Virus record (IMG/VR): IMGVR_UViG_3300039008_000208
Coordinates: 1 to 64,000 of that record
Direction: 5' to 3' (one strand)
From: a virus
DNA length: 64,000 nucleotides
Position 1 is the first letter of the stretch; every line of letters begins with the position of its first letter. This document shows positions 33,752 through 50,148 of the stretch, piece after piece. The notes beneath the pieces are model-generated. The model worked only from the letters and a program-made list of their open reading frames with translations. It searched no databases and was not told the origin of the DNA. The translations under genes and the position numbers were made by a program.

Positions 33752-33794
33752 GCGTATGGTTCATCGGTATTTTAGCTAAAATATTGGAGGGATC

Positions 33795-34388
33795 ATGCCT
33801 CAAGTTCGTCTTGATTTTGAGAAGCTAACAGAAGCTGGTTTGAAACCGGTAGTTAGGAAAATAGAAAAACATGGCCTTACAGTAGCAAGCATAAAAGCTA
33901 CAAATAAGGCTAAACGGATGTCGGGTTATCTAACAAAGTCTGTGATTTTTGTCTTTGATACAGGACAGCAGTTGGAAGTTTTGGTCAAAGCCGACGGGAC
34001 GGTTTTTCAGGTAAAATTAAACCGTAAGGTTGTACCTATTAAGGCTGTGTCTAACATTGACAAAGCAATTGTCGAGCTTGTTGATGCCGTACAGGATAAT
34101 GAAAGAAAATATTTGAAAGCCAAGAAACGTCGTGAAGCGCAGGTTGCTAAAAAACTTGCTACAGGTTCGCCTGCTCGGATCACTCGAAAAGAAAAACTTG
34201 ATAAAGCTAAAGCAATGCAAAGTGAGTTGCAGAGTGAGTTAGCAGTTTATCAAGAACGTATGCAGTCTCTTGATCTTGCCGATCTTCAAGCTCGACTTGA
34301 AGACAAGAAGGCAGAAGAAGCATTATTGCAAGAAAAAAATACCGAACTTAAATCAGAACTCGAAGGTTTGAAAAAGGAGGCTGTATAA
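33795..34388 (+). CDS. coiled-coil protein sharing its N-terminal module with the next ORF (Hdf-like relationship)
   Basis: 197 aa. SVIFVFDTGQQLEVLVKADG...KLNRKVVPI resembles QLPFSDGQSVSIIFHSPEGD...LLNKRDITHVV in the 745-aa ORF. Both segments are followed by coiled coil. Confidence 0.35.
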   Translation: MPQVRLDFEKLTEAGLKPVVRKIEKHGLTVASIKATNKAKRMSGYLTKSVIFVFDTGQQLEVLVKADGTVFQVKLNRKVVPIKAVSNIDKAIVELVDAVQDNERKYLKAKKRREAQVAKKLATGSPARITRKEKLDKAKAMQSELQSELAVYQERMQSLDLADLQARLEDKKAEEALLQEKNTELKSELEGLKKEAV

Positions 34389-36625
34389 TGCCAATTACTC
34401 GTGAAGAAGTATTACAAGCCCCTGTCAACCCGAACTTCAATGGAATAAAGATTACGGCAGAAGGCGGTACGTTGGTCGGCTTTTCTGTAAACGAACTTGA
34501 TGATGTTTACTACAAGTTATCTAGTGGCAGGTATGAAGATGCTTGTTTGCTAGAGTCTGTAAGCTTCGATGCAATCGACGAATTTTGGAATCCAGCTTCT
34601 GTTGTTTTTGGCGAAGACATGCTTCTTGAAGCTGTTACGATCCCTTCGTATGCTCGTACAGGCCAACGCATGAAAGCTGTCGTGCGTGTCATGAATAAAG
34701 CTCTAAGCAGTAATGAATCTGGCATTACTGCTGAAGCTCCGATTGTTGGTAAGCCGAAAAAGCAGGGAAATTTTGCATACGTGACAGTACAGCTTCCTTT
34801 CTCTGATGGGCAGTCTGTATCGATAATCTTTCATTCTCCGGAAGGAGATAAAAAGAAAATTGAAGCCACTGATCCATTGATTGCGTTTCGCTGGCTGTTG
34901 AATAAGCGCGACATAACACATGTTGTAGCTCCGGAAAGTGGTCGCGAAATCTCGTTAGAAGAAATTTCCAAACGAGTATCTCAGCTTGTTGAGAAAAATC
35001 ACGTCCGCTTTATGAAAACGCAAAAAGCGGCGATGGAAGAACAGAAAGAGCTTGAAGCAACGGAAAATTCTATTGCTGAAATTAAAGAACAGATTACGAC
35101 TACTACTGAAAAAGTGGAACAAGCTGTAAAGCAGAAGGAAACTGTTGAGTCGAAGATTGAAGCTCGTGATGTTCGCATTTCTAAGCTTGCGGATGAAAAT
35201 GCTAAGCTTGAGGCAGAGATTGTCGAATTAAAAGCTAAGAAGGCGGCTACAGCCCCTCAAGAGGGCGGCTCTGATGGTGAAGGTGCTAATCCTGAAGTAA
35301 CTGATGAGGTAGTCCCAGACGAAGAAGTTTCTCGTATTGATCCGTTTTGGAAGCCTGAAAAACTTCCGTCCGATGTACGTACTGCATTGAAAAAAGTACC
35401 TGTGCGCGTGACAGTTGGCGAACTCCCGTCAACATTCCCTAAAGAAGTTCGCCGTGGTGGGCATCTTATCATGAAGGCCAGCCGTCCGATTACAAGCGGT
35501 AACGACATTATCTGGGGTAAACACTTTGCCGGTATCAACCCTGAAGGCCAGTATGCAGCACAATCTATTGAACACAACCGTAAGCTTGATGCATCCGTCA
35601 TTGCGGTAGTTTCAAAAGAACAAGCATACGAGTACCTGACTCATAAATTCGGTGATGAATTTACGAATTCAGATGCGGACGATGAAGCTCGTATGGAGCT
35701 TGCTGAAACACAGCTTTCCAATCTCGAAGGACTTGCCTATCCAGAGTTCCTCAAAGCCTTTAAAAACCCTACTGATGAAAGTGAAGCTGGTGAGGGAGAA
35801 GGTGAAGAAGGTTTAAATAACGATACGTTCCCAGAAGAATCCGTTATCCGTGCGCTGAATGGCGTTGTTCTTGGTAAAGATACAGCGGCAGACATGGCGG
35901 CAGACGGCGGCTATGCTGGCATATTGAAAGATAAGCTGTTGCAGGAAAAGTATCAGGATGCGCTTGACCACATCCTCGGCATTCGTATTGTTGAGGTGCG
36001 CAACGCGCTTCGTGATCTTGGTTGGAGCGGTGAGCAAAATGGTACGCTGTCTAAGAATGGTGTGACTGCCAAGTTTGAATATGAGCATGTAGGAGCCGGT
36101 AAGAATGTAGTGGGTTATTCGATTAACGGCATTCGTGACGACCTTACTGCCCTTTCTGAGGAGCTTGCAAGGCAGATTGACACTACTGCCCCAACTTCAG
36201 CCAATGAGCCTGAAGTTGAGGAAGGGGCTGATGTGAACGAGCCATATCCTGTCGGTTTTACTTGGGCTGAAGGTATGAAAAACTTTAAAGTTGTTGATCG
36301 CGAAGGTGAAAAGTACATCATCGAAGACACTGCTATGGCGGGAATGTTTCCAGAAGTGGTAACCTATGAAGAGCTTCATAACCGAGTGACTAACCCACCT
36401 CGCCCAGAAAGGGGTAGCGGTGAATTTAATCCAGCAGTGGAATCATTGAAGAGCATTGTTGCTGGCGCTTATGACCACGATCCGGAAGGACTGGAAGCTG
36501 CCCTTGATGAAGCAGCGGAGTATCTTGAAGAACGCGATTTGTTAAAGCGATATGACGAACTTCTTAATGAAGCAGCAGATAAAGCAGCACAAGTTGCGAT
36601 TGATGGCGCAAAAGGGGTAGCGTAA
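34388..36625 (+). CDS. large coiled-coil virion-associated protein (DarA-like by architecture)
   Basis: 745 aa with ATGA start/stop coupling. It has a central coiled coil and acidic linkers. Confidence 0.3.
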   Translation: MPITREEVLQAPVNPNFNGIKITAEGGTLVGFSVNELDDVYYKLSSGRYEDACLLESVSFDAIDEFWNPASVVFGEDMLLEAVTIPSYARTGQRMKAVVRVMNKALSSNESGITAEAPIVGKPKKQGNFAYVTVQLPFSDGQSVSIIFHSPEGDKKKIEATDPLIAFRWLLNKRDITHVVAPESGREISLEEISKRVSQLVEKNHVRFMKTQKAAMEEQKELEATENSIAEIKEQITTTTEKVEQAVKQKETVESKIEARDVRISKLADENAKLEAEIVELKAKKAATAPQEGGSDGEGANPEVTDEVVPDEEVSRIDPFWKPEKLPSDVRTALKKVPVRVTVGELPSTFPKEVRRGGHLIMKASRPITSGNDIIWGKHFAGINPEGQYAAQSIEHNRKLDASVIAVVSKEQAYEYLTHKFGDEFTNSDADDEARMELAETQLSNLEGLAYPEFLKAFKNPTDESEAGEGEGEEGLNNDTFPEESVIRALNGVVLGKDTAADMAADGGYAGILKDKLLQEKYQDALDHILGIRIVEVRNALRDLGWSGEQNGTLSKNGVTAKFEYEHVGAGKNVVGYSINGIRDDLTALSEELARQIDTTAPTSANEPEVEEGADVNEPYPVGFTWAEGMKNFKVVDREGEKYIIEDTAMAGMFPEVVTYEELHNRVTNPPRPERGSGEFNPAVESLKSIVAGAYDHDPEGLEAALDEAAEYLEERDLLKRYDELLNEAADKAAQVAIDGAKGVA

Positions 36626-37533
36626 TGTCTCTCTCATTTAAAGAGAAGCGTGCTCTTACAAAGGTTGTTCATGCCAAGGTGAAACAGCTTGAATCTGGTG
36701 GGCTGACTTTTAAAGAAAAAAGAACTGCCACTAAAGAGCTTAATGAAGCTGTCAAAAAGCTTGGAGCACAGCTTGGGGCGATAAGATCAAGTAAACTTCT
36801 TGATAAACTTGTTGCTGGTGATTTCAACAAACTTGCTCCATTACCTTTTATTGCGAAAGTTCGCGAGGTTGTGGAATCTATAGGCAATGATGTTAAGCCG
36901 GTATTGCCTCCGGTTATTGAATATGTTGCCCTTAACAAGGGGAACATCGGCATCATGGAGTCTGCAATACTTGAGTCAGTGCAAATGATGGGTTCTCCAG
37001 TGCAGTTTCAGACAGCTCATGAAAGACAATCGGCAGTATTAACGATTGATATAGATCACGATTTCAAGGAACCGGCAGTTTTTCGCTCTCAAATCCGGTG
37101 CCTCGAAAATGCCAGTGTAGAGGATGAGATTACATTAAAAATCAACAGCCTTGGTGGTCGAACTGATGCTGCAAAGGCATTTTATGTGGCTTTGATGGAA
37201 ACGAAGGCCAAAACCAAAGCTAAGCTGCTTACTGCACACTCTTCTGGCGCAATCGTTGCTTTCGCATGTGATGAGATAGAACTCACTCCACATTGTGAAG
37301 CGATGATTCATAATGCTAGCTATGGAATGCGTGGTAAAGTCAACGATGTTCATGCCAGCGCAGCATTTTCGCAGCAGCACCTTACCGGTTGGTACAATGA
37401 GCTATTTCAAGGCTTTTTATCTCAAGATGAGATTGATGATGTAATGAAGGGTCAAGATATGTATTTTGGCTATTCTGATCTCAAAGATCGCCTTGATAAT
37501 TGGACGCCTATTCGTCAGCGAGAAGGGCGGTAA
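36625..37533 (+). CDS. ClpP/S49-family serine protease (prohead protease candidate)
   Basis: ITLKINSLGGRTDAA...LLTAHSSGAIVAFACDEIELTPHCEAMIHNASYG follows the ClpP/SppA pattern. Confidence 0.55.
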   Translation: MSLSFKEKRALTKVVHAKVKQLESGGLTFKEKRTATKELNEAVKKLGAQLGAIRSSKLLDKLVAGDFNKLAPLPFIAKVREVVESIGNDVKPVLPPVIEYVALNKGNIGIMESAILESVQMMGSPVQFQTAHERQSAVLTIDIDHDFKEPAVFRSQIRCLENASVEDEITLKINSLGGRTDAAKAFYVALMETKAKTKAKLLTAHSSGAIVAFACDEIELTPHCEAMIHNASYGMRGKVNDVHASAAFSQQHLTGWYNELFQGFLSQDEIDDVMKGQDMYFGYSDLKDRLDNWTPIRQREGR

Positions 37534-37535
37534 TA

Positions 37536-39365
37536 ATGAACAATAGTTTATTTGAGGCGGCGCAAGCCGCTTCTTACGAATCTCTACATGCCGAGAAAGT
37601 GGAAGGGGTTAAGCAAAATATCAGTAGCGCCTCATCAATGGGCGAACTTGAAGAAATTTTTGCAGCAGCTTTTAGTCTTGGAAGCGTAGAAGAACGCCAG
37701 CGAGATATAGCGTATCTAAATGCTTTTGATGTTGCAGAACAGCAATATGCAGAGGAGAAAAAGAATTCTCTTAAAGCGATTTCTGCTCAAACGCTTCTTG
37801 CTGAGCTTCAACTAGATGAGGTCGTGGCAGCAAATAAGACATTGAAGAGACGTGATTCAGGTCGCAATCTTGGGAATGAAGTAGAACAAGCTTTTTCGTC
37901 TCTTGGTCAGCAAGTTTTAAGCTCTATAGCAGGAGATGTTTACTCCGAAATCCTTGAATTACGAAAAAAAATTGTAATTCTTCGAGGACAGCGAAGTGAG
38001 TTGGACAAGCCATTAAGAGAAGCTTTTCGCACACAACAGCACAATATTATTAATGGTGATGAATATAGGAAACTTAGCGAGCAGTATGATGTAGATGCAA
38101 ATGCAGTATATCGTAAGTATAGAACGCTGGCAAAAGAGCTTGATATCGACTCTCCTGACTACTCGCAAAAAATCTCAAACATTCAAAAAGAATATAAAAA
38201 GGAAAATGATGCACTTTATGAAAACTTTAAAGGGAGGCAGTTAGCTTTATTTAATAAAGCAGAAGAAGAGTACAAAAGAAAATCAGTTGAAGTGACAAGC
38301 GCCATTGATGAAGAAATTAAAGAAGCTGAAGCTCGTAAAAACGCTTTAGAACTTGAAAAATATAACAGTGTGATAACGAAGTTAACAGAGCGCTCTCCCA
38401 TTTCTGAAAAAGATGCAAAGCTATGGGTTGAATCTCATGTGATTATTAAAAAAGATGCGTTGGCACGATTAAAAAAAATACCTAACTATTCTAACGTTGA
38501 AGACTTCAAGTCAGACATTGCGAAATTTTATCGTCTTTGTGGCGGAAAGATTGCATCTGTTAATTTTGTTGCGACAAAAGGGAAGAAAGAGCGGGCTTTT
38601 GCGTCTGATAAGAAAAATGTTATCGCTATCTCTTCTGATATGGACAAAGAAGTTCTATTTCATGAGCTCGGACATCACTTAGAGTTTCGCAACACTATTG
38701 CACAAAATGCCATATGTAATTTTATTAGTCGGCGCACAAATGGCGAGCGACTCGCTAGCTTAAATAGTCTCACCGGATTTAATGGGTACAGCAAAGATGA
38801 ACGGGCGCGAAAAGATGCATTTATTAGTCCCTATGTAGGTAAACACTATAAGGACGGATCGACGGAAGGTATTTCAATGGGTGCTCAGTATCTTTCAAGT
38901 CCAGATGCTTTGTTTTCGTTGTTTGAGCGTGATAAAGAGCATTTAGAACTTGTAACTGGAATGTTTGCTCATACTGACAGTGCAACTCATGCATATTTTG
39001 AAGCACAGCGTCATGATGCTCTGAGTGAAAAAGAAATAGTGCTTTTAACTGATGCGTTTGCCGTAGCTCTTGATAAGGTTATTACTGCTAAAAAGATGGC
39101 AAGATTTGAGAAACGTCATTCTCGTATGATTGAAAAATTTGGTCGAACATACATGGTGTATCTTGAAGACGGGAGACGCCAAGGGTTTACTAAGATTCGC
39201 AACGCACGGGCATTCTTTTATCTCGTTGAAGCCGGTAAGCAAGGATTAATTCCTGAGACAGTAAGTCCGCTAACGGCAATGAACTATACATATGGCAAAA
39301 AAATTCCACCGTGGTTTACTGAACACTTTGAGTTTCAAGACCTTATAGATGTAGATGGGGTATAG
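37536..39365 (+). CDS. zincin-like metallopeptidase domain protein (polyvalent-protein type)
   Basis: 609 aa from ATG 37536. It has an FHELGHHLE HExxH motif and a long helical N-terminal half. Confidence 0.5.
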   Translation: MNNSLFEAAQAASYESLHAEKVEGVKQNISSASSMGELEEIFAAAFSLGSVEERQRDIAYLNAFDVAEQQYAEEKKNSLKAISAQTLLAELQLDEVVAANKTLKRRDSGRNLGNEVEQAFSSLGQQVLSSIAGDVYSEILELRKKIVILRGQRSELDKPLREAFRTQQHNIINGDEYRKLSEQYDVDANAVYRKYRTLAKELDIDSPDYSQKISNIQKEYKKENDALYENFKGRQLALFNKAEEEYKRKSVEVTSAIDEEIKEAEARKNALELEKYNSVITKLTERSPISEKDAKLWVESHVIIKKDALARLKKIPNYSNVEDFKSDIAKFYRLCGGKIASVNFVATKGKKERAFASDKKNVIAISSDMDKEVLFHELGHHLEFRNTIAQNAICNFISRRTNGERLASLNSLTGFNGYSKDERARKDAFISPYVGKHYKDGSTEGISMGAQYLSSPDALFSLFERDKEHLELVTGMFAHTDSATHAYFEAQRHDALSEKEIVLLTDAFAVALDKVITAKKMARFEKRHSRMIEKFGRTYMVYLEDGRRQGFTKIRNARAFFYLVEAGKQGLIPETVSPLTAMNYTYGKKIPPWFTEHFEFQDLIDVDGV

Positions 39366-39367
39366 CT

Positions 39368-40336
39368 ATGAATTCTGACTATGTATTTGAAATTACGCTT
39401 TCATCTGGTCTTGTAACTGTGGCAATCCATGACACAGAGTGGGATAGCCCTGCGATAGGCACTGCAACAAGTCTTTTTACTGATGCACTTGAACAATTTC
39501 ATGAGTTGATGAGGTTGTATGGATTTGGCAGAGAAGGACATCTTTTTTCTTTGAAAAGCTGCCGTCCTGAAGATTTGGTGATAGCCCTTGTGACGTGCCA
39601 GACGTATCATAAGCTAGATGGATTAAGACATTGGAAACTTGTGTCAGGGAACTGGCCTGAAATGCTCTGCGAGCATTGTCAGTTTATTGTTCCGTATCGT
39701 AGTGGAAGTAGAAAACCGAATGGGTGCTGCAAATTAACAAAACAGGACAGAGATCATGACGCTGTCTGCAATCTGTTTGACGACCAACTTTTTGAGTCTG
39801 CATCCGCTGCTGAAATTGCACAACAGGCAAACGAGTCAGCAACATCGCCAGAGAATGATCTCCCAGAGCCAACGCAGAAGCAGAAAGAATCAGGCAATTA
39901 TAAAACAGGTAAATTGCGCATCGCGGGTCTAAATATTTCCATTGAAAACCCTGCTGGTTCCAAACGGTCTGGTGTTGATCCGAATGGCAATGAATGGTCT
40001 ATTCAGCTTCAACATCATTATGGGTATGTAAAAGGCTCGCTAGGCAAAGATAAAGACCATGTAGACGTATTTATAAATCCGAAAGCATCTGAAGATGAGA
40101 TAATCGCACGTCCGATATACGTTGTAGATCAAATTTCGCCTGAGACAAAAGAATTTGATGAACACAAGGTTATGTTTGGGTTTGCAGATAGAAAGGCCGC
40201 AGAAGAAGCATATTTATCAAATTATGAACAAGGCTGGAATGGCTTAGGAACTATTTCTGAGATGAGCATGAATGTCTTTTCTGCATGGGTGTTTAATAAA
40301 AAAGCGACGAAACGCCCTGCTGGTATTACGAATTAA
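39368..40336 (+). CDS. inorganic-pyrophosphatase-like domain protein with a Cys-rich N-terminal domain
   Basis: ISIENPAGSKRSG...HHYGYVKGSLGKDKDHVDVFI...IYVVDQI parallels family I PPase (NYGYI...DGDPVDVLV). Confidence 0.45.
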   Translation: MNSDYVFEITLSSGLVTVAIHDTEWDSPAIGTATSLFTDALEQFHELMRLYGFGREGHLFSLKSCRPEDLVIALVTCQTYHKLDGLRHWKLVSGNWPEMLCEHCQFIVPYRSGSRKPNGCCKLTKQDRDHDAVCNLFDDQLFESASAAEIAQQANESATSPENDLPEPTQKQKESGNYKTGKLRIAGLNISIENPAGSKRSGVDPNGNEWSIQLQHHYGYVKGSLGKDKDHVDVFINPKASEDEIIARPIYVVDQISPETKEFDEHKVMFGFADRKAAEEAYLSNYEQGWNGLGTISEMSMNVFSAWVFNKKATKRPAGITN

Positions 40337-40354
40337 TAGTTTTGTACATTATGC

Positions 40355-40383
40355 CCCACGCTATTTTTAGCGTGGGTTTTTTT
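40355..40383 (+). terminator. Rho-independent terminator
   Basis: cccacgct-attttt-agcgtggg followed by T7. Confidence 0.8.
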
Positions 40384-40450
40384 AGCTTCAAAAAATGCGA
40401 TATGCGGCAGATAGAACAGTGGAGCTATCCCTTCTTAGGGTTATTGAGCT

Positions 40451-40491
40451 ATCGAATTAAACGATGCGTAGAACGTATCGTCTAATTCGAT
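40451..40491 (+). promoter_or_regulatory. 18-bp imperfect inverted repeat upstream of the 2105-aa gene
   Basis: atcgaattaaacgatgcg-tagaa-cgtatcgtctaattcgat (2 mismatches) followed by ttttt, ending 31 nt before the ATG. Confidence 0.4.
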
Positions 40492-40522
40492 TTTTAAATG
40501 ATAGCCACACTAGAGAGAGCAG

Positions 40523-43500: not shown

Positions 43501-46500
43501 TGATCAGCTTTGGGAGGTTGTCCAGTCTAATCCGGCAATTGTCGTAATGTCCCGTGATTGGTTCGCTAAAATCCCACTGAAGCAAGAAGCGAAGGATATG
43601 TACGTCGATGATATGATGGCTTTGTTACCAACCGATGGTGATAAAAAGAGCTACCAGCAAGACGTAGCGCGGCAGAAAAAGCAAGAACAATATGCAGATG
43701 AAGGGACTAACAAGAAAGATAGTTTCCCGTTTTTTGAAGAGATTGGGTTTGACTCAGTCATGGTCGACGAACTGCATGAACAGTTTAAAAACTCTCTTCC
43801 TGCCGGTCAGAAAACTCGTGGTATTGCATATCTTCCTGCTGCCGGTACTGCTCAGAAAGGTCGCGACATGGCTATGAAAGGCCATTACTTGCGCACAATG
43901 AATAACGGACGTGGTATTGTCGGCCTATCTGCTACCCCAGTCACAAATTCTCCATTCGAAATTTTCAATCAACTGTCGCTTGTTGCTGGTGTTGATGATT
44001 TTCAGCGCTTCGGCGTTTCCAATGTTGACGATTTTGTGCGTATTTTTGGCAATACAGAGCTCATGGATGTGATGAACATTAAAGGAGATGTTCAACTTAA
44101 AAATGCGCTTTCAGGCTTTAAAAACCTTGATGGACTCCGCTCTACATTCAATAAGTTTGTAAATCTACAAACTGCTGATGATGTAGGTAAAGAAGTACAT
44201 GTTCCTACTCCTGTCGAGAGTGTTCACGACGTAGAAATGACCAGTGAACAGGAAGAGCTCTATTCTTCATTAAAGCGTCGTGCAAATATTCTGCTGAATG
44301 CCGAGTCTATGCTTGATGCGGCAAAAATGCAGGGGGTAGAGGAGCTTGAAAAAGTACAAGCAGAAATTAAAGCCCTAGAGGGCGATTCTGTATTTTCCAT
44401 TATTCGCGATATGGACAGGGTTGCCACAGACGTAGACTTGTATCGCCGGACAATGACGTTCATTCTGCCTAAAAAACATAAAGAAGCGACGTTGAAGCTT
44501 GTTGATGGGTTGCCGGATACATACAAAGCGCCTGTGCTTGACGAAGAAACAAACAAGCACATGGTAGACCCTGAAACCGGTAAAAAAATGTATCGTAATG
44601 CAGAACTGGAGTACTCAATTCTTGATGATGAAGATACGTTTCGCCTTATTTTACCCGATCTGTATGAAGACTTAGTCCTCAAGGCTATGCCGAAGTTTGA
44701 TATTGCCGAATCTGATACAACTCATCCTTTGACACCTAAGTATGCTGCTATGGTGGCGAATGCTAAAAAACACCATGAGGCAAAAGGCAAACAGCTTCTT
44801 TTCACTGAGGAAAAGACACAGCACCGAAAGCTGAAGCGCCTATTGGTGCATAATATTGGCCTCACTTCAAAGCAGATTGCAATCATTAACGCAGATGAGG
44901 CAGCAGGAGAAAAGCTTGATACGATAAGCAAGAATTACAATTCAGGTACGCACATTTTTGCTATTGCGAATAAAAAAGCCGAAGTTGGTGTAAACCTACA
45001 AAAAGGTACAACAGCTATCCACCACATGACCTATCCGTGGACACCGGCAAGTATTAACCAGCGTAATGGTCGCGGTGTTCGACAAGGGAATTCTCAGAGC
45101 TCTGTTGATGTCTACTATTACTCAGGCAAAGGTACATTTGATAATTATCGAAGAATGACGCTTCTTTCTAAATCCACATGGATGGAAGATTTGTTTTCTG
45201 GAAAAGAAACATCTCTTGAAAACGCGGATGCAAGTAGCCGTGAAGAGATGATTATTATGGTAGCAGAGAATCCTGATGAAATGCGTAAAAAGATTGAGCA
45301 GCAGCGCCTTGATCGGGAAAAAGAGCGTGCTAAAAAAGAGCGTGTCCAGCTTACTAACCGTTTTCAAACCTATGCAAACAATGCCCGTGCGCTAGCAAGT
45401 AATGAAACTCGAAAAGAAGAAGCACGCGAGCAACGTCAGCGTGTTGTTGATTCTTTGAAAGAGAAACTTAATAGCCAGAAGCAGCTTGGCAAAATTGATG
45501 CCGCAGAAAAAACTCAAATAAAGCTGGACAAGGCAGAAGAAAAACTTGCGCGCGTTGATGCCGAATTTGCAGCCGAAAAAGCTCGACTGGAACGCACCGT
45601 AGCGCAGCATAAGGGCTATCTTTCTTCAAAGGCAAAAGAGGGTAAGCTACCATTCTCTGCCAGCCTTGTAGATCACCCCGAAAATGCTATTGCTGATACT
45701 CGTGGGCGTCTCTACATCGTAGGGGAATATTTTGAGCGGATGCTTAAAGGCTCAAGCCTTGGGATTTTCCAAGTTGTGGAGATAGAACAAGACACCCGTC
45801 GAGTTATTATCGATGTAATTTCTGGTAGGCCTTTTGGTTTTGAAAAGGTGATTCCCATTGTTGATTTTAAAGGTGTCATTAAAAAATGTACTATTTCTCA
45901 ATCTGAATTGAATATTGCGAGGCTGACTAATCAAGGTTGCGAATATGCGGATTTACCAAAGTTTATTCCAAAAGATGAATACCTGAAACTCCAAGCTACC
46001 TTTAAAAAACCACATGGGTACTATTTTACAAATGAGGCGGAGAAAGGGCTAACACTTGTTTCTCATAGTACCTTTATCCCTGCGTACCCAGAACCACAAA
46101 ATAAGAACTTTAGAGAAGCTGCATTTAATGCTTACGTCGAGCGTAATAGGACGCAGGGGCGTTATACTGCTGTTACTGAGATGATGGAGTCTTTGTTTGG
46201 TGCTGGATGGGAAGAAGAGGCAAAACAGTACGAAACAAACCTTTCTGAAGGTAAGGTAATTAAGCTCCTAAATCAGCATTTTGAAGATAAAAAAGAAGAA
46301 TTGGGTCTGACAACTGATAAAGAGCTGCTTCATCAGTTGTACCGTTTTCTTTACAGCGCGAAAGCGGAGCTAAAAAAACTTGCAGACAATCATCGTGAAC
46401 TCGAAGCATGGGTTGATATTTTTTACGAGGCAAAAAAAGCAAAGCTGAATACAGCAATAAATGAAGAAAAGTTAGCGTTGAAGAGGCAAGAAGAAGAAAA

Positions 46501-46840
46501 GGCGTTAGAGCAAGAAGAGGTCGCACGAGAAACGGGCACATTTTACTCTTTGTCGTCTGCGGATATTGACCGGTTTAAAGAGATCGGCATTACGCTGAAA
46601 GTTAATCAAAATAATTTTGTTACGAAGTGGAAACGATGGACGAACGAGTATGATGCATTTTCTCGAATTTTCATTTCTGGATATGCAACTCGTGCCGCCT
46701 TTGCTGGAAATGCTGATGCAAAGGCTATTTTTGATGCTAAATTTACGAAGGATTGGCCTGAAGCTTCTGGTGCATGGTGGCATGTAAAATCAGATTGTGA
46801 TGTGAATGAACTGTTTCAGTTGTTTAATGAAGCAAGTTAA
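40523..46840 (+). CDS. N6-adenine DNA methyltransferase + SNF2 helicase fusion (DarB-like polyvalent protein)
   Basis: 2105 aa. Methyltransferase motif I is LEPSCGAGVF and motif IV is GNVPFG. Helicase motifs are GVGLGKT, MVDELHEQF, LSATPVTNSP and QRNGRGVRQGN. Confidence 0.75.
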   Translation: MQDQIFEQLSDDEKDRLNSAKNYRELEAAFTEIMGLGGSSSEALKPNAYQATDSEYGLKARGVKTREKLNAQAIEIINRVDNPQDLTEEDRNILLQYSGKGGLSDNSQYEYYTPTFVAEGVWNALKKNGFASGSVLEPSCGAGVFLGTKPEGAVCFGNDLDPVGSKVSKLLNPESIVSNTPFEAVVVSAEDESFDCAVGNVPFGSARGASANLDPAYKNEKQIERYFLLRMLDKIKPNGLICVVVPTNIIGKRDAGWQRFRIELSKKAEFLGAHKLAGGNGRKDEDVFGGKGGQGTSTTTDVIVLRKHPRSVLDKIHDIASDTLWATNVYFDEFIEGRYWQGEGKPFIQGEYSLKKRRNGFDEVVSGGAVEPAAVKAKLAHKFHSRIDWDELDAAEPREVCAVEGDRRYLGGVSFEYTNGLWQKVVVSQETITPISEEQYGFATEQDLAFALQNNATLLSLSYEQAQALLADYPSQLSELQKEAIKYGLNKPEALREQLMRGILFGGMLSRMKSAEDQGEDVSMERQVLQEQIVAEIDTYGHPLNNSRLRNAASDSGLFKMYQNAVDRKGQFSALLSGQLERAVDRIGYDAGDPTDVVTHMFVRQGKHNIFFDDFKEMYVGERKIESLGDLANVDGLAITPSGTLMPMNRYCSGDIFSKIAELAEAMDHEGDQRLVACWKRQIDEMLSKMKKVETEDIVFGVQQNWFDRKYIDDFIRSEGFEIGYGKELEVEKEHYDGTTYTATEFDYDYTGLDGEFVYTGKGKNSKNKFENQLIKVLNGGKIDRLVPPQGMSDTEKKAWKETKLIEYHGELNALEERFNSWMQQHKDIQSITDSYNRKFNGYVPVQYETDPLVGMDEYFAEDVKLHGYQNAEVRRLSEEGRGICGFGVGLGKTFTGLATCAHDHKMGRSKKKCIVVPKSVLENWYHEARALYRQDFFYNKIKFIGLEVVRDKGGNITQVPLMDERGEQVISKTGNPVFQDKLKAKGGYAYIADQLWEVVQSNPAIVVMSRDWFAKIPLKQEAKDMYVDDMMALLPTDGDKKSYQQDVARQKKQEQYADEGTNKKDSFPFFEEIGFDSVMVDELHEQFKNSLPAGQKTRGIAYLPAAGTAQKGRDMAMKGHYLRTMNNGRGIVGLSATPVTNSPFEIFNQLSLVAGVDDFQRFGVSNVDDFVRIFGNTELMDVMNIKGDVQLKNALSGFKNLDGLRSTFNKFVNLQTADDVGKEVHVPTPVESVHDVEMTSEQEELYSSLKRRANILLNAESMLDAAKMQGVEELEKVQAEIKALEGDSVFSIIRDMDRVATDVDLYRRTMTFILPKKHKEATLKLVDGLPDTYKAPVLDEETNKHMVDPETGKKMYRNAELEYSILDDEDTFRLILPDLYEDLVLKAMPKFDIAESDTTHPLTPKYAAMVANAKKHHEAKGKQLLFTEEKTQHRKLKRLLVHNIGLTSKQIAIINADEAAGEKLDTISKNYNSGTHIFAIANKKAEVGVNLQKGTTAIHHMTYPWTPASINQRNGRGVRQGNSQSSVDVYYYSGKGTFDNYRRMTLLSKSTWMEDLFSGKETSLENADASSREEMIIMVAENPDEMRKKIEQQRLDREKERAKKERVQLTNRFQTYANNARALASNETRKEEAREQRQRVVDSLKEKLNSQKQLGKIDAAEKTQIKLDKAEEKLARVDAEFAAEKARLERTVAQHKGYLSSKAKEGKLPFSASLVDHPENAIADTRGRLYIVGEYFERMLKGSSLGIFQVVEIEQDTRRVIIDVISGRPFGFEKVIPIVDFKGVIKKCTISQSELNIARLTNQGCEYADLPKFIPKDEYLKLQATFKKPHGYYFTNEAEKGLTLVSHSTFIPAYPEPQNKNFREAAFNAYVERNRTQGRYTAVTEMMESLFGAGWEEEAKQYETNLSEGKVIKLLNQHFEDKKEELGLTTDKELLHQLYRFLYSAKAELKKLADNHRELEAWVDIFYEAKKAKLNTAINEEKLALKRQEEEKALEQEEVARETGTFYSLSSADIDRFKEIGITLKVNQNNFVTKWKRWTNEYDAFSRIFISGYATRAAFAGNADAKAIFDAKFTKDWPEASGAWWHVKSDCDVNELFQLFNEAS

Positions 46841-46852
46841 ACGAGGTCTTAC

Positions 46853-47287
46853 ATGTTGAATTTAACATTTCTGAAGCCTTCAGAGGAAGAGTTAAAACCT
46901 GTCGTTACTTATGCAACGGAGGCTGTTGGGGAAGAGGCGTGGAGAGAATCTTTTTTAGTGAATATTGTTCAGCTTCTTCAAAAAAGGCCTCTTCAATATC
47001 GAGCTTTTGGGGCTTATTGGTGGCTTTTAAAAGCTGAACTTCTTGCGCTTAGTATCGATGTTTTTGGTGACGAAACAGATGCGGAATGGGTTGAAAAAAT
47101 AAATTATGGCCTATCTGTCACAAATATCGTTGCCGCCTTTATTTATTACGAAAAACGCATAGAGTTGGGGTTAATTTTTGAATCAAATCATTTGATTGAA
47201 TTGATTGATTCAGATGGTGACATCAATACCAAACCCTATGTGCTGCACGATCCGGAAATGGAAATATTGGCAGTCAGTCGGAAATAA
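46853..47287 (+). CDS. hypothetical protein
   Basis: 144-aa ORF between the large fusion gene and the portal gene. Confidence 0.4.
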   Translation: MLNLTFLKPSEEELKPVVTYATEAVGEEAWRESFLVNIVQLLQKRPLQYRAFGAYWWLLKAELLALSIDVFGDETDAEWVEKINYGLSVTNIVAAFIYYEKRIELGLIFESNHLIELIDSDGDINTKPYVLHDPEMEILAVSRK

Positions 47288-47291
47288 ATAT

Positions 47292-48974
47292 ATGGGAAAC
47301 AGCAAGCTTAACAGGCTAGCAGGAAAAATAAAGGGTGGAGCAGGAGCTCTACTGTCGGTATTTCCTTCGTACTCTGGAGTGTCAGCGTATGATGCGAGAA
47401 ACGTGGATATTCCTTCTTCTGGCGGGGGGCTAATTGCCCCCCGTTTCTCCAGTGAATTTAATCAACTTAAATCATTGGATGGCGATGCCACGGGAGAATC
47501 TAAAAATATTCCCAAAATGCCTACAGAACGCCTTTCTAAGTATCCTTTTTTTCGCACAATGGCCTCTGATCCGACGATTGATAGCGCTATCAAGATGCAC
47601 TTATCTCATGCTTTTTCTTCAAATGAGGAAACTGGCGATATTGTCCGGTTTGAATCTGTAGCTGACGAGCACAATGAAATTGTCGAGGACTTACGCAATA
47701 CGTTCAAAGACATGATTAATGAAAATTTGCATAAATGGGCTTACCCTGCTGCTATTTTCGGTGTGAATTATGCTCGTATTTATGGCGAAAATAAAATTGG
47801 AATTACGCATATCCGCAATGATTACTATACAAATCCGGAATTCGTTAAGGAATTCGAGCAAGCAGGGAGGCTGGCTGGATTTACTTGCGGCTATAATGGT
47901 GGACATGATGAAGTGCGTCTTCTTGAACCGTGGAAAATGGCTGCATTTAAGACCCCATTTTATCATAACTCAAGTATGATCGAGCCAATGCGTGTTAGTG
48001 GGGCAGAAGTCAATCTTTACGACGATGATTTAAGCAAAGAATCGTTATCGGAAGCCGAAGATTACGGAACATCATTGATTGAAACAGCCTATGAAGCATG
48101 GTTTGACTTAAATGAGGCTATCTTGAGTCTCAATATGTCTCGTAAAAATGCCGCACGTCTTGATCGAATGGTGGGGGTGCAGATGGGACGGTTAAACCCT
48201 GCTCAAGCAGCCAGCTACCTGAATACTATTTCAAGGCAATTTAAAGGCTCTCAGCGGAAGCTAGCACGTAATACTCTTCGTAGAGATTCTGTATCAACGA
48301 TCAATAACATACTGCTCCCAATACAAGGTGAACATGGCGGCATTGACATAAACACCGTTGAAGGTACGCCAGATATCCAAGGCCTTGAAGACGTGTATTT
48401 CCATGTGAAGCGTCTGGGGTCTGCAATTGGTATTGATCCAGCTCTATTAGGATTTGGTGAGTTTCTTTCTGGAGGTCTTGGGGATGGCGGATTCTTCAGG
48501 GTTTCGATTCTTGCTGCGCAGAAGTCGCATATGCTTCGAAAAGCTGCAAAGCAGCTATTAGAGCGTATGTGTGAGATTCACGTTGCTTATAAGTATGGAA
48601 AATTCTTTCCTGCGGGTACGAAACCGTGGCGTATAGTCTTCGAAAGCGTGTCTACTGCTATGGAACAGGAAGCACAGACAAATCTCGAAACCAGAGTGAA
48701 TCTAGCTGTTGCAATGGCTACCTTAGTCCAAACATTAGACCCCGAAATGCGCGGACTAGATAAGCATAAGTTGGAAAACTATTTATTCACTAATCTCACT
48801 AAGATGGATGAAGAAACCTTTAAAGAAATTTTTCCAGAGAAACTTGCCAAGGAAGCGGCAAAAGCTGCTGAAGAAGGTGAGAATATGGATCAGGATGGTT
48901 TCTTTGAATCCGTTCAAAATGAACCTCAATTGCGACAATTTATCTATGAAGTTGTTGCAGACGTTATGAACTAG
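47292..48974 (+). CDS. portal (head-to-tail connector) protein
   Basis: ATG 47292 follows the upstream stop. ERLSKYPFFRTMASDPTIDSAIKMHLSHA resembles the conserved connector N-terminal motif (RY..y..M...PeI..AL.iya). Confidence 0.55.
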   Translation: MGNSKLNRLAGKIKGGAGALLSVFPSYSGVSAYDARNVDIPSSGGGLIAPRFSSEFNQLKSLDGDATGESKNIPKMPTERLSKYPFFRTMASDPTIDSAIKMHLSHAFSSNEETGDIVRFESVADEHNEIVEDLRNTFKDMINENLHKWAYPAAIFGVNYARIYGENKIGITHIRNDYYTNPEFVKEFEQAGRLAGFTCGYNGGHDEVRLLEPWKMAAFKTPFYHNSSMIEPMRVSGAEVNLYDDDLSKESLSEAEDYGTSLIETAYEAWFDLNEAILSLNMSRKNAARLDRMVGVQMGRLNPAQAASYLNTISRQFKGSQRKLARNTLRRDSVSTINNILLPIQGEHGGIDINTVEGTPDIQGLEDVYFHVKRLGSAIGIDPALLGFGEFLSGGLGDGGFFRVSILAAQKSHMLRKAAKQLLERMCEIHVAYKYGKFFPAGTKPWRIVFESVSTAMEQEAQTNLETRVNLAVAMATLVQTLDPEMRGLDKHKLENYLFTNLTKMDEETFKEIFPEKLAKEAAKAAEEGENMDQDGFFESVQNEPQLRQFIYEVVADVMN

Positions 48975-48987
48975 AAAGGACAATGCT

Positions 48988-50031
48988 ATGGGCAAAAAGG
49001 TTCTCGATACAATTACAGCAGAATTTAACATGCTAACTGAAGGGCGTCAGTACAGCGGTAATCATCGGTCTTATCTTGTTGATAACGCGATGAAGGTCGT
49101 TGACTCTGAAGCTACAAAAGAACGTATCGCCATTCGTGAAGCGTTTGGTTATTACGGGCATGGTTTTCGAAAGCTTGCAAAAAAAATGAATCTTGAAGAG
49201 ATAGAGCCGGTACGTTTGCCCAATGGCCAGACAACTGTGATTCACGCAGTTCCTTCCAACCTTACTACTGGCTTAACGGTTTCGAAAGATGGGGTTGTGA
49301 AGCATTCTCAGGACATTCTTGATACAGATTCAGGGCAGCTTGTCTCCAGACTCAATGGTAGTCATGTTGGCGGCTTTTCATGGGCTTGTTCCGGAGTAGA
49401 TCGCCAGCGGAGAGGCATCTCTATCATGACAGGGTTTAGCGGAATGGACTACGTGCTTCAGCCAAACTTTACGGCAAACCGTGGGTACATTCTGGAGTCA
49501 GTTAGTAATGAAGACTTCATATTAGAGTCAGTTTCGAAGGTGGTTGGCGATGATAAGGTTGCCGAACAGCTTGTAAGCTTATGGCAGATGGATGCTGTAT
49601 ATGAAGCAGAGCAGCTTCGTTCGCAAATTGAAGATGCTACGGCTATTGAAGTCGAGCTCACCAACCGCTTGCACGAGAAAGACGCCGCTCTTGAATCCAA
49701 AACTACAGAATTTGATGATCTCTCTGAGCAAATGAAGGCAGCCGTTGCTTCGCAGGAGGCAGAGCGTGAATATCGAAATCAACTTGTTGAATTTATCAGC
49801 GAAAAGGCACCGTTTTTCATTCCAGAAAATATTAAACATGCCATGCTGGAAAACGACTTCACAAAGGCAACAGGATTGTTTGAAAGCGCACAGCAGTTTC
49901 ACTTTGAATCTCTCCCGCTGTCAGCATCAAACCATAGCAAAGGTACGGTGATTGACACTGGTAGAATGGCAGCCTTCCAAGAGCCAGAGGCTGATTCTGT
50001 GGATGCTATTTTTGCTGTCCCACCTCTTTAA
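48988..50031 (+). CDS. scaffolding or prohead-protease-like protein
   Basis: 347 aa directly after the portal gene, with a C-terminal coiled coil and an acidic tail. Confidence 0.35.
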   Translation: MGKKVLDTITAEFNMLTEGRQYSGNHRSYLVDNAMKVVDSEATKERIAIREAFGYYGHGFRKLAKKMNLEEIEPVRLPNGQTTVIHAVPSNLTTGLTVSKDGVVKHSQDILDTDSGQLVSRLNGSHVGGFSWACSGVDRQRRGISIMTGFSGMDYVLQPNFTANRGYILESVSNEDFILESVSKVVGDDKVAEQLVSLWQMDAVYEAEQLRSQIEDATAIEVELTNRLHEKDAALESKTTEFDDLSEQMKAAVASQEAEREYRNQLVEFISEKAPFFIPENIKHAMLENDFTKATGLFESAQQFHFESLPLSASNHSKGTVIDTGRMAAFQEPEADSVDAIFAVPPL

Positions 50032-50143: not shown

Positions 50144-50148
50144 GCTGA

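What the first reader, a model, noticed from the sequence alone, without database searches (positions are those of the whole stretch)
33795..50031. Candidate capsid-packaged, Dar-like anti-restriction / polyvalent protein module next to the portal
Two successive operons (an intrinsic terminator at 40355-40383 separates them) encode, in order:
- a 197-aa protein whose N-terminal module recurs in the following 745-aa coiled-coil protein
- a ClpP/S49-type protease
- a 609-aa HELGH zincin
- a pyrophosphatase-like protein
- a 2105-aa fusion of an N6-adenine methyltransferase (LEPSCGAGVF, GNVPFG) and an SNF2 helicase
- a 144-aa ORF, then the portal and a scaffold/protease-like gene
In coliphage P1, restriction defence is provided by proteins packaged in the head (DarA, DarB, Hdf, DdrA, DdrB, Ulx). 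There, DarB is a ~250-kDa methyltransferase-helicase and Hdf is related to part of DarA. As I recall the P1 map, darB lies next to the portal and protease genes. The architecture here parallels that, but with extra enzymatic cargo (zincin, PPase-like protein). It may be a distinct, larger injected counter-defence set.
Basis: partly seen in the sequence, partly recalled or inferred. Interest (0 to 1): 0.7.

Follow-up and report, generated by a model that had tools for sequence, protein, structure and literature searches.

The report
P1-type Dar capsid cargo module, rearranged
This 16-kb stretch of a distant relative of phage P1 encodes homologues of all six proteins that P1 packs in its head to protect injected DNA from restriction, plus two extra enzymes (a ClpP-like protease and a pyrophosphatase-like domain) that look as if they are docked in the head and then cut free.

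Summary
The window is a roughly 94-kb P1-like myovirus, 25-36% identical to P1 at protein level.

Genes 33795-50031 encode, in order: Hdf, DarA, a DdrA-like domain fused to a ClpP-like serine protease, a zincin homologous to the C-terminal domain of P1 DdrB, an InPase-domain protein, DarB, Ulx, the portal (Prt) and Pro. Terminator-like hairpins at 33720, 40355 and 50147 delimit two units.

- The zincin is not extra cargo, because P1 DdrB carries the same domain.
- DdrA is not missing. It is the N-terminal 108 residues of the "ClpP" protein (hhalign 96%, E 4e-9).

What is truly additional to P1 is the ClpP-like domain and the InPase protein. P1's DdrB ParB-like domain is absent.

Two results go beyond the finding:
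- The DdrA-like domain is a swappable N-terminal module. It has 185 cluster representatives and is fused elsewhere to ClpP-like protease, zincin, InPase, DarB, ParB and nuclease domains.
- The experimentally mapped P1 capsid maturation site (LE|S) recurs at the domain boundaries of the cargo proteins.

This suggests that cargo is docked and then released by cleavage. It is a new variant of a known system. Packaging and anti-restriction activity remain untested.

The parts
33720..33752 (+). Hairpin plus T-run that ends the upstream tail-fibre/DGR unit. It marks the start of the darA-type operon.
   Evidence: Perfect 10-nt arms at 33720-33729 and 33736-33745, followed by TTTTTTT on the + strand (sequence read). 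The scan listed the same palindrome.
33795..34388 (+). hdf homologue (197 aa): DarA_N-type N-domain plus a charged helical C-terminal half.
   Evidence: Pfam DarA_N E 1.2e-10. PHROG 'Hdf-like antirestriction' E 6e-33, full length. 28.6% identical to P1 Hdf by tblastn, E 4e-14.
34388..36625 (+). darA homologue (745 aa): cleavable N-terminus, DarA_N domain (88-204), coiled coil (about 190-290), and a divergent C-terminal half.
   Evidence: Pfam DarA_N E 7e-32. PHROG 1926 E 4e-56. NCBIfam anti_RE_DarA scores 142 bits, below the equivalog cut-off of 350, over residues 53-289 only. 31% identical to P1 DarA residues 25-280. No DarA_C match. The C-terminal segment 509-619 is 43% identical to the phage Rb1 'internal head protein'. 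'MLLE80|AV' corresponds by local sequence similarity (read by eye) to P1 'DLLE68|AI', the point from which P1 DarA is ordered in cryo-EM.
36625..36948 (+). DdrA-like N-terminal domain (aa 1-108) of the 302-aa protein, proposed as a capsid-docking adaptor.
   Evidence: hhalign of seven such domains against P1 plus D6 DdrA: probability 96%, E 4e-9, colinear over the full length. Against P1 DdrA alone: 60%, E 9e-5. The domain is a stand-alone 103-aa gene directly after darA in L010/L011.
36955..36981 (+). Linker 'GIME|SAILE|SVQ' (aa 111-119): two copies of the LE|S maturation-site motif between the adaptor and the protease domain.
   Evidence: Motif search. E112-S113-A114 are invariant in all four homologues.
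37009..37533 (+). ClpP-like serine protease domain (aa about 129-302).
   Evidence: Pfam CLP_protease E 2e-11. The best NCBIfam match is 'head maturation protease, ClpP-related', E 3e-14. Aligned with solved ClpP structures, S206 and H229 sit on the catalytic Ser and His. S206, H229 and D272 are invariant in the homologues.
37536..39365 (+). Zincin (609 aa): about 290 aa of long helices, then an HExxH domain homologous to the C-terminal domain of P1 DdrB. No ParB-like domain.
   Evidence: BLASTP against P1 DdrB 821-935: 30% identity, E 2e-11, including HELGHHLE. H376, E377, H380, E383 and E444 are invariant. 31% identical over 350 aa to the Rb1 'metallo-peptidase'. No Pfam, NCBIfam or PDB sequence match.
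39368..40336 (+). InPase-domain protein (322 aa): Cys-rich N-domain of unknown type (1-about 140), 'QLFE|SA' motif at 142-147, then a type-I pyrophosphatase-like domain (170-308).
   Evidence: Pfam InPase E 6e-53. The DKDHVDV, ENP, HYGY and FDEHK motifs are conserved. The whole two-domain unit (aa 32-315) is 37% identical to part of the 'DarB-like' giant protein of Sinorhizobium phage PBC5.
40355..40383 (+). Intrinsic-terminator-like hairpin between the two units.
   Evidence: CCCACGCTA-TTTT-TAGCGTGGG followed by TTTTTTT.
40523..46840 (+). darB homologue (2105 aa): N6-adenine methyltransferase plus SNF2-type helicase.
   Evidence: 32.5% identical to P1 DarB over 88% of its length, E 0. Methyltransferase motifs I and IV are identical in type to those of P1, L009 and Rb1; Walker A is GLGKT at 890 and motif II is DELH at 1082. 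Pfam Eco57I, SNF2-rel_dom and Helicase_C.
46853..47287 (+). ulx homologue (144 aa), directly downstream of darB as in P1.
   Evidence: PHROG 'Ulx-like anti-restriction' E 5e-27. 28% identical to P1 Ulx, E 1e-10. The P1 order darB-ulx is shown.
47292..48974 (+). Portal (prt homologue), 560 aa from ATG 47292.
   Evidence: PHROG portal E 2e-141 and Pfam Portal_T4. 33% identical to P1 Prt. Start codon.
48988..50031 (+). pro homologue (347 aa): conserved N-terminal domain (GYYGHG, GGFSWA) plus a C-terminal long helix. It carries three LE|S-type motifs.
   Evidence: 31.5% identical to P1 Pro, E 4e-32. Conserved residues. Motifs at 169, 179 and 298. The AF2 model shows a helix at 189-273, but the N-domain is low-confidence.
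50147..50195 (+). Terminator-like hairpin that ends the darB-ulx-prt-pro unit.
   Evidence: 16-bp stem followed by TTATTTTTT.

Best explanation
This is the Dar (defence against restriction) capsid-internal protein system of a distant P1-like phage. The two P1 operons are brought together here and run co-linear with the portal and pro genes.

Shown by homology: Hdf, DarA, DdrA (as a domain), the zincin domain of DdrB, DarB and Ulx are all present, next to Prt and Pro.

Inferred from what is known in P1:
1. Hdf-DarA pairs line the inner capsid surface and come first in an ordered incorporation.
2. The DdrA-like domain docks next and here carries a ClpP-like protease into the prohead.
3. The zincin, the InPase protein, DarB and Ulx are loaded as well.
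4. The prohead protease (Pro is the shared candidate) cuts at [LIMF]-E|S/A motifs. This trims the capsid protein and the DarA N-terminus, and releases the ClpP-like and InPase domains from their N-terminal targeting domains.
5. The cargo leaves with the DNA at infection and protects it in cis from type I restriction.

The extra enzymes probably widen the function. The InPase domain may hydrolyse pyrophosphate or nucleotide-type defence signals. The ClpP-like protease may process cargo or clear scaffold inside the head.
For: - Homology of every component.
- Whole-window synteny with P1 structural genes. The source contig is 94,101 bp.
- The P1 gene map and domain content for comparison.
- Catalytic motifs are intact in DarB, the ClpP-like domain, the zincin and InPase.
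- The same module recurs in other P1-like contigs with domains shuffled. L009 has Hdf-DarA-DdrA::ClpP-InPase+2H-DarB-Ulx-Prt. In L010/L011 DdrA stands alone, a zincin follows, and an InPase match lies directly upstream of the DarB match on the same strand, apparently in the same reading frame. Rb1, L014 and L015 have InPase fused to the N-terminus of DarA.
- The DdrA-like domain has 185 cluster representatives. Most are 100-150 aa. Others are fused N-terminally to ClpP-like protease (7), zincin, InPase, InPase+DarB, ddrB-ParB, PBECR nucleases or an Acb2/Tad1-like domain.
- P1 gp23 is cut at AMLE120|S121 (PMC9024508). The aligned site in the window's capsid protein is SIFE|SV.
- [LIMF]ES[AV] occurs 14 times in the window's ORFs against 3.2 +/- 1.7 in shuffles, and 11 of the 14 are in head proteins, at domain boundaries.
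- The motif precedes six of the eight InPase domains aligned that have sequence upstream, whatever that upstream sequence is; two others (L014, L015) have LD instead of LE there. It recurs before the next domain in longer fusions.
- A solved portal protein (PDB 9b41) carries a C-terminal InPase domain, E 5e-27.
- Literature: P1 Dar proteins are in the virion, are incorporated in the order Hdf/DarA, DdrA, DdrB, DarB/Ulx, and are ejected with the DNA (PMC9024508, PMC12810830).
Against: - Nothing here shows that these proteins are in virions or that they affect restriction. Everything functional is transferred from P1 at about 30% identity.
- The C-terminal half of DarA is not recognisably DarA-like (no DarA_C), and the NCBIfam equivalog cut-off is not reached.
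- The DdrB ParB-like domain is absent.
- The xESA motif follows the DdrA-like domain in many unfused family members too. It could therefore be a structural feature rather than a cleavage site.
- Three motif copies lie in the portal, which is not known to be processed in P1.
- Pro could not be shown to be a protease. The AF2 model has pLDDT 54. There is no PDB or Pfam match and no hhalign similarity to T4 gp21.
- No promoter was found for the second unit.
Confidence: 0.75

Rival explanations
1. The module is mainly a head-morphogenesis unit. The ClpP-like protein is the real prohead maturation protease of this phage clade. DarA and Hdf act as internal scaffold or size determinants, and any counter-defence role is secondary.
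For: - The closest curated family of the protease domain is 'head maturation protease, ClpP-related'. Several PHROG head-maturation-protease families also match.
- About 890 phage records carry related ClpP-type domains, in most of the records listed annotated only as ATP-dependent or Clp proteases.
- Pro could not be confirmed as a protease.
- In P1, DarA and Hdf affect head size (PMC12810830).
Against: - P1 has no ClpP-like gene, yet it cuts its capsid protein at the same LE|S motif that is conserved here. The shared gene, Pro, is therefore the better candidate for that cleavage.
- The ClpP-like domain is one of many alternative cargoes on the DdrA-like domain. It is absent from the related contigs L010/L011, which have stand-alone DdrA.
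- The protein itself carries two LE|S motifs in its linker, as a substrate would.
- The two readings do not exclude each other.
Confidence: 0.12
2. The cargo set is aimed at nucleotide-signalling defences such as CBASS or Thoeris rather than, or in addition to, restriction. The injected InPase domain would degrade signal nucleotides.
For: - In relatives the InPase domain is fused to 2H/Acb1-like phosphoesterase domains. In L009 the matches are 2_5_RNA_ligase2 at E 3e-6 and Acb1 at E 6e-3. In L006 the Acb1 match is weak.
- One DdrA-like fusion carries an Acb2/Tad1 hairpin domain.
- Iyer et al. 2017 proposed a nucleotide-like substrate for these InPase domains (PMC5512222).
Against: - The window's own InPase protein has no 2H domain.
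- The Acb1 matches are weak.
- The alternative role, clearing pyrophosphate to help early polymerase reactions, fits equally well.
- No biochemical data exist for this InPase clade.
Confidence: 0.2
3. The methyltransferase-helicase and its neighbours are a host-type defence island (DISARM- or BREX-like) carried as a moron, not virion cargo.
For: There are weak NCBIfam matches of the helicase C-terminal region to DISARM DrmD (E 2e-8, 33 bits against a cut-off of 610) and to an anti-phage phospholipase D protein.
Against: - 32.5% identity to P1 DarB over 88% of the length.
- The gene is embedded between Dar homologues and the portal, within the structural gene block on the same strand.
- All the defence-family scores are far below their cut-offs.
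Confidence: 0.02

Closest known systems
Dar system of coliphage P1 (Hdf, DarA, DdrA, DdrB, DarB, Ulx; Iida 1987, Piya 2017, Gonzales 2022, Zheng 2026)
   Same: - Homologues of all six proteins are present.
- The internal order is the same: hdf-darA-ddrA-(ddrB) and darB-ulx.
- The module lies next to prt and pro.
- Hdf and DarA share DarA_N.
- DarB has the same methyltransferase and helicase motifs.
- The LE|S/A motif is conserved at the capsid-protein maturation site and, by similarity of the surrounding sequence, at the DarA N-terminal site.
   Different: - Identity is only about 28-33%.
- The two operons are adjacent and co-directional with the portal. In P1 they are 12 kb apart and darB is divergent from prt.
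- DdrA is fused to a ClpP-like protease.
- The DdrB counterpart lacks the ParB-like domain and consists of a coiled coil plus the zincin.
- There is an additional InPase protein.
- The C-terminal half of DarA is unrelated (no DarA_C).
- No lydA/lydB holin genes lie upstream.
Dar-like modules of other P1-like phages and contigs (Xanthomonas phage Rb1 PQ569993; IMG/VR UViG_3300042274_000144, UViG_2654587515_000001 and UViG_3300021597_000002; Logan contigs L014/L015)
   Same: They use the same kit of parts: DarA_N proteins, a zincin of about 600 aa, InPase, DarB, Ulx and the portal. L009 also has the DdrA::ClpP fusion, at 46% identity.
   Different: The parts are joined differently. InPase is fused to the N-terminus of DarA in Rb1, L014 and L015, appears joined to the N-terminus of DarB in L010/L011, and is fused to a 2H phosphoesterase in L009. 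DdrA stands alone in L010/L011. L009 has no zincin.
Polyvalent proteins of phages and conjugative elements (Iyer, Burroughs, Anand, de Souza, Aravind 2017)
   Same: - The domain vocabulary is the same: DarA_N, InPase, the DdrB-type metallopeptidase, SNF2 helicase and N6 methyltransferase.
- The idea is the same: packaged effectors delivered at infection and separated by proteolysis.
   Different: - Here most domains are separate genes rather than one giant polypeptide.
- That paper mentions neither DdrA nor any ClpP-type or serine protease.
- It attributes processing to the zincin. The motif evidence here points instead to prohead-protease sites at domain boundaries.
T4 internal proteins (IPI-III, Alt) with an N-terminal capsid targeting sequence removed by the gp21 prohead protease
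   Same: The logic is the same: an N-terminal targeting element, cleavage after Glu in a hydrophobic-x-Glu context, and injection with the DNA to counter restriction. The T4 details are from my own knowledge; PMC9024508 makes the comparison for the DarB targeting sequence.
   Different: - The targeting element proposed here is a folded domain of about 105 aa (DdrA-like), not a peptide of about 10 residues.
- There is no sequence relationship.
- Pro shows no detectable similarity to gp21.
Portal protein with a C-terminal InPase domain (PDB 9b41 chain L, 'gp19 Portal', 765 aa)
   Same: The InPase domain belongs to the same family (E 5e-27 over residues 181-316), and here it is part of a solved portal protein.
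   Different: There it is covalently part of the portal. Here it is a separate protein with its own N-domain and a putative cleavage site.

Membership tests
P1 Dar system | Hdf: a small protein with a DarA_N-type domain, encoded directly upstream of darA | tested here: met
   Pfam DarA_N E 1.2e-10. PHROG Hdf-like E 6e-33. tblastn against P1 Hdf E 2e-14. Its stop codon overlaps the darA start codon.
P1 Dar system | DarA: DarA_N domain plus helical capsid-binding region, and a DarA_C domain | tested here: inconclusive
   The N-terminal half meets the test: DarA_N scores 110 bits and is 31% identical to P1 DarA 25-280. DarA_C is not detected, and NCBIfam anti_RE_DarA scores 142 bits against a cut-off of 350.
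P1 Dar system | DdrA: a protein of about 120 aa encoded directly after darA | tested here: met
   [quoted passage not shown] Stand-alone orthologues occur in L010/L011.
P1 Dar system | DdrB: ddrB-ParB N-domain plus C-terminal HExxH metallopeptidase domain | tested here: inconclusive
   The zincin domain is homologous (E 2e-11). There is no ParB-like domain anywhere in the window. Phage D6 DdrB shows the opposite case: its only significant Pfam match is ddrB-ParB.
P1 Dar system | DarB: a fusion of more than 2000 aa of an N6-adenine methyltransferase and a superfamily-2 helicase | tested here: met
   32.5% identity over 88% of the length. Motifs I and IV, Walker A and DExH are present.
P1 Dar system | Ulx: a protein of about 145 aa encoded directly downstream of darB | tested here: met
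   PHROG Ulx-like E 5e-27. tblastn against P1 Ulx E 1e-10. The position is as in P1.
P1 Dar system | The proteins are incorporated into the head in a DarA/Hdf-dependent order and ejected with the DNA | not testable with these tools
   This needs virion proteomics and mutants. Only indirect support is available: the genes sit in the late structural block, and the maturation-site motif is shared with the capsid protein.
P1 Dar system | Protects the packaged DNA in cis against type I restriction-modification | not testable with these tools
   This needs plating assays on restricting hosts. The host of this phage is unknown: the source is JGI metagenome 3300045494.
ClpP-related phage head maturation proteases | ClpP fold with a catalytic Ser-His(-Asp) | tested here: met
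   Pfam CLP_protease scores 44.5 bits against a cut-off of 20.2. S206 and H229 align with the catalytic residues of ClpP. S206, H229 and D272 are invariant.
ClpP-related phage head maturation proteases | Curated family score (NCBIfam Clp_rel_HeadMat), and a role as the phage's capsid-processing enzyme | tested here: not met
   The score is 53 bits against a cut-off of 120. A second candidate protease, Pro, is present, and P1 processes at the same motif without any ClpP-like gene. The role itself is untestable here.
Polyvalent-protein InPase domain (Pfam PF18823) | Type I pyrophosphatase OB-fold domain with conserved acidic metal ligands, in a phage virion context | tested here: met
   178.7 bits against a cut-off of 26.8, covering the full model. 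The D-x-D-x-x-D, ENP and DEHK motifs are retained. Enzymatic activity was not tested.
Polyvalent-protein metallopeptidase (MPTase, Iyer 2017; Wss1/SprT-like zincins) | A match to the family model, or a zincin fold of that type | tested here: inconclusive
   There is no Pfam match even at E<5. The best PDB fold match is yeast Wss1, but it is not significant (E 0.43). Homology to the P1 DdrB domain that Iyer et al. call an MPTase is significant.

The most novel reading that the evidence does not exclude
The DdrA-like domain is a general capsid-docking adaptor of P1-like phages. Any effector placed behind it is loaded onto the DarA-Hdf lattice and then cut free at an LE|S site by the prohead protease. 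Effectors seen behind it are a ClpP-like protease, InPase, a zincin, a ParB-type nuclease, PBECR nucleases, an Acb2/Tad1-like sponge and DarB itself. The module would thus be a plug-and-play delivery system for counter-defence proteins. On this reading the ClpP-like protease is itself injected and attacks host defence proteins, rather than only acting inside the head.
Probability: 0.3. Interest if true: 0.75.

Novelty: new variant of a known kind. Interest (0 to 1): 0.5.

Why it matters
How P1 selects and loads its Dar proteins is an open question. Gonzales et al. 2022 found a targeting signal only in DarB and no common signal among Dar proteins.

This divergent module, read together with its relatives, offers a testable answer: a folded DdrA-type domain as the docking unit, and the capsid maturation site as the release signal.

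It also shows that the Dar cargo set is variable and includes enzymes not found in P1 (a ClpP-like protease and InPase, with 2H phosphoesterases in relatives). This hints at targets beyond type I restriction.

In practice, such an adaptor plus cleavage site could be used to load chosen proteins into P1-type heads for delivery into bacteria.

Tried and rejected
- Megablast of the 16-kb region against the phage and plasmid collections found nothing. The phage is too divergent for DNA-level comparison.
- A genome-contig scan with the ClpP-like alignment found no relative, so the host remains unknown.
- Direct BLASTP of the ClpP-like protein against P1 DdrA, and of the InPase protein against P1 DdrB, gave nothing. 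The DdrA relationship appeared only with profiles.
- Pro as a protease was not confirmed. A profile search against PDB sequences gave only chance hits. The AF2 model was too poor to search with, at pLDDT 54. hhalign against T4 gp21 gave probability 0.1%.
- Zincin classification failed. There was no Pfam, NCBIfam or PDB sequence match. The PDB fold search had no significant hit. The viral fold search returned only uncharacterised phage proteins.
- A candidate shared promoter word, GAGCTAT, seen in three intergenic regions, is not enriched: 11 copies against 7.7 expected. The P1 late-promoter -22 box is absent upstream of both units. No sigma-70-like site lies in 40384-40522.
- The paper by Piya et al. 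2017 (PMC6011833) is not held. Its results are cited through later papers.
- The host defence island reading (DISARM-like) was rejected on context and on scores far below the family cut-offs.

Full report
**1. What is there**

The region holds nine co-directional genes on the + strand: 33795-34388, 34388-36625, 36625-37533, 37536-39365, 39368-40336, 40523-46840, 46853-47287, 47292-48974 and 48988-50031.

Three hairpin-plus-T-run sites bracket them into two units. They lie at 33720-33752, 40355-40383 and 50147-50195. I found no promoter for the second unit, neither a sigma-70-like site nor the P1 late -22 box. 'Two operons' therefore rests on the terminator alone.

**2. Identity of the element**

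DNA searches find nothing. At protein level, however, the window is co-linear with phage P1 across baseplate, capsid, sheath, tube, tape-measure and fibre genes, at 25-36% identity. An identical Pro protein lies on a 94,101-bp JGI metagenome contig, which is about the size of P1.

**3. Identity of the genes**

| Window gene | Identity | Evidence |
|---|---|---|
| 197 aa | Hdf | Pfam DarA_N; PHROG Hdf-like, E 6e-33 |
| 745 aa | DarA | Pfam DarA_N; PHROG DarA family, E 4e-56 |
| 2105 aa | DarB | 32.5% identical to P1 DarB over 88% of its length; same methyltransferase motifs I and IV (NVPF variant) and helicase motifs |
| 144 aa | Ulx | PHROG E 5e-27; P1 Ulx E 1e-10; same place downstream of darB as in P1 |
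| next two genes | Prt and Pro | |
| 609 aa | zincin of DdrB type | aligns with P1 DdrB residues 821-935, including HELGHHLE (30% identity, E 2e-11) |

Iyer et al. (PMC5512222) identified that part of DdrB as its metallopeptidase domain. The zincin is therefore part of the P1 set, not an addition.

The order is hdf-darA-ddrA-ddrB in one operon and darB-ulx in another, the latter divergent from prt-pro.

**4. The 'ClpP' protein is a fusion with DdrA**

Its C-terminal 175 residues are a ClpP-fold serine protease. Pfam gives E 2e-11. S206 and H229 align with the catalytic pair of solved ClpP structures. S206, H229 and D272 are invariant in the homologues. Its nearest curated family is the phage 'head maturation protease, ClpP-related', though below that family's cut-off.

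Its N-terminal 108 residues contain a tandem LSFKEKR helix motif and a G-x-F...P..FIAKV segment. In two IMG/VR P1-like contigs this same domain is a stand-alone 103-aa gene directly after darA, which is the position and size of P1 ddrA. A profile of seven such domains aligns end to end with a P1 plus D6 DdrA profile, at hhalign probability 96% and E 4e-9. Against P1 DdrA alone the figures are 60% and E 9e-5.

So all six P1 Dar components have counterparts here. Compared with P1, the window lacks the ParB-like domain of DdrB and the DarA_C domain. It adds the ClpP-like domain and the InPase protein.

**5. Relatives show a shuffled kit of parts**

The ClpP-like fusion is rare: a word-indexed search of 5.8 billion proteins found four clusters. 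In every case where context is available, it sits directly after a DarA gene (L004, L006, L009).

InPase turns up in many joins:
- as its own gene (this window);
- with a 2H/Acb1-like phosphoesterase (L009 and L006);
- fused to the N-terminus of DarA (Rb1, L014, L015);
- directly upstream of DarB on the same strand and apparently joined to it (L010/L011);
- as DdrA::InPase and DdrA::InPase::DarB (P0017, P0018).

A solved portal protein (PDB 9b41) ends in the same domain. Iyer et al. had already predicted that this InPase clade is virion-packaged.

**6. The DdrA-like domain is modular**

An exhaustive profile search of 1.84 billion cluster representatives found 185 members at E<=0.001. Most are 100-150 aa. 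Of the 150 best hits listed, 57 are 185 aa or longer.

Among the longer ones, the domain is fused, usually at the N-terminus, to:
- the ClpP-like protease (7 representatives);
- the window-type zincin;
- InPase;
- InPase plus DarB;
- ddrB-ParB;
- PBECR2 or PBECR3 nucleases;
- an Acb2/Tad1 hairpin domain.

In P1, DdrA is the first protein incorporated after Hdf and DarA (Piya 2017, as cited in PMC12810830). The inference is that this domain docks cargo onto the DarA-Hdf lattice. Gonzales et al. noted that BLAST finds no common targeting signal among Dar proteins. Neither that paper nor Iyer et al. discusses DdrA fusions or a ClpP-type protease.

**7. A shared cleavage motif**

P1 capsid protein gp23 is cut between E120 and S121, in the context AMLE|SVAAEM (PMC9024508). 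The aligned position in the window's capsid protein reads SIFE|SVGTEY.

The pattern [LIMF]ES[AV] occurs 14 times in the 62 window ORFs. Residue shuffles give 3.2 +/- 1.7, with a maximum of 9 in 300 shuffles. Eleven of the 14 are in head proteins:
- the capsid protein;
- DarA at residue 55;
- the 302-aa protein at 111 and 116, exactly between the DdrA-like and protease domains;
- the InPase protein at 142, between its N-domain and the InPase domain;
- Pro, three copies;
- the portal, three copies.

DarA also has MLLE80|AV, which by similarity of the surrounding sequence corresponds to P1 DLLE68|AI. The P1 cryo-EM model of DarA begins at residue 70, and residues 1-69 are thought to be removed.

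Across relatives, an LE|S motif precedes six of the eight InPase domains that have upstream sequence in the alignment, whatever lies upstream; L014 and L015 have LD at that position. It recurs before the next domain in longer fusions.

I read this as docking followed by proteolytic release, the same logic as T4 internal proteins.

Caveats:
- The xESA motif also follows many unfused DdrA-like domains, so it could be structural.
- The portal copies are unexplained.
- I could not verify that Pro is a protease. Pro remains the best candidate because it is the gene shared with P1, which has no ClpP-like gene.

**8. Mechanism and rivals**

The best-supported account is a P1-type Dar system with a docking-and-release loading scheme and an enlarged enzymatic cargo (confidence 0.75 for the Dar identity, less for each inferred step).

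- The main rival is that the ClpP-like enzyme is the true maturation protease and the unit is chiefly morphogenetic (0.12). This is not exclusive with the best account.
- A second reading is that the InPase branch targets nucleotide-signalling defences (0.2). It rests on weak 2H/Acb1 associations in relatives.
- A host-type defence island is excluded by context and scores (0.02).

**9. Novelty**

The Dar system, the DarA_N and InPase domains, and the polyvalent-protein concept are all published. New here, as far as the searchable literature shows, are:
- the DdrA::ClpP-like fusion;
- the recognition of DdrA as a widespread swappable N-terminal module;
- the coincidence of the mapped P1 maturation motif with cargo domain boundaries.

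This is a new variant of a known kind, and it yields a directly testable hypothesis about how Dar cargo is selected.

Noticed in passing
window 27191-31034 (VR 29120-29226, TR 29805-29911, RT gene 29790-31034): A diversity-generating retroelement lies next to the Dar module. There is a reverse transcriptase (PHROG 1423, E 2e-94) and a 107-nt repeat pair at 90% identity. All of the roughly 12 mismatches are adenines in the RT-proximal copy. The variable copy is the 3' end of a 682-aa tail-fibre-like gene. P1 switches its fibres by Cin inversion; this phage appears to use a DGR instead.
   Followed up: partly
window 10917-11337: This intergenic region holds at least eight direct copies of AAGCTACATTTAGGATG, plus one inverted partial copy. 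It is an iteron- or operator-like array, possibly a replication origin, a partition site or a repressor-binding array of this P1-like element.
   Followed up: no
window 40451-40491: A 19-nt-arm inverted repeat (89% complementary, 3-nt spacer) followed by TTTTT lies 32 nt upstream of the darB start, downstream of the terminator at 40355. It could be an operator or an attenuator for the darB-ulx-prt-pro unit.
   Followed up: no
window 28040-28339 and 32616-32915: A 300-nt direct repeat at 80% identity links the 682-aa fibre-like gene to the 522-aa ORF 31725-33293. That ORF has a 941-aa relative upstream of hdf in L009. These are probably paralogous fibre segments.
   Followed up: no
window 47292-48974 (portal residues 120, 450, 538 of the 560-aa form): Three copies of the FESV maturation-type motif lie in the portal protein, where 0.15 would be expected. 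P1 Prt has one (ILESV) near its C-terminus. Portal processing is not described for P1.
   Followed up: no
L004 4805-11291 (NCBI GCA_043955495.1, contig JBINOJ010001437.1): The DarB homologue of this related contig is interrupted by an intein-type insertion (Pfam Hom_end and LAGLIDADG_3). The tblastn match to DarB breaks between 7357 and 8465.
   Followed up: no
L009 11336-12688; L006 4136-6490: InPase proteins of related Dar modules carry a C-terminal 2H phosphoesterase domain (2_5_RNA_ligase2 at E 3e-6, with weak Acb1 matches). In L006 there is also a weak RadC match. This hints at a nucleotide-signal substrate.
   Followed up: partly
window 53130-54122 (-) and 58059-59861 (-): A tyrosine recombinase (PHROG integrase, E 1e-60) and a large helicase (PHROG 1967, E 3e-101) lie on the opposite strand downstream of the module. 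The recombinase may be the counterpart of P1 Cre or a true integrase.
   Followed up: no
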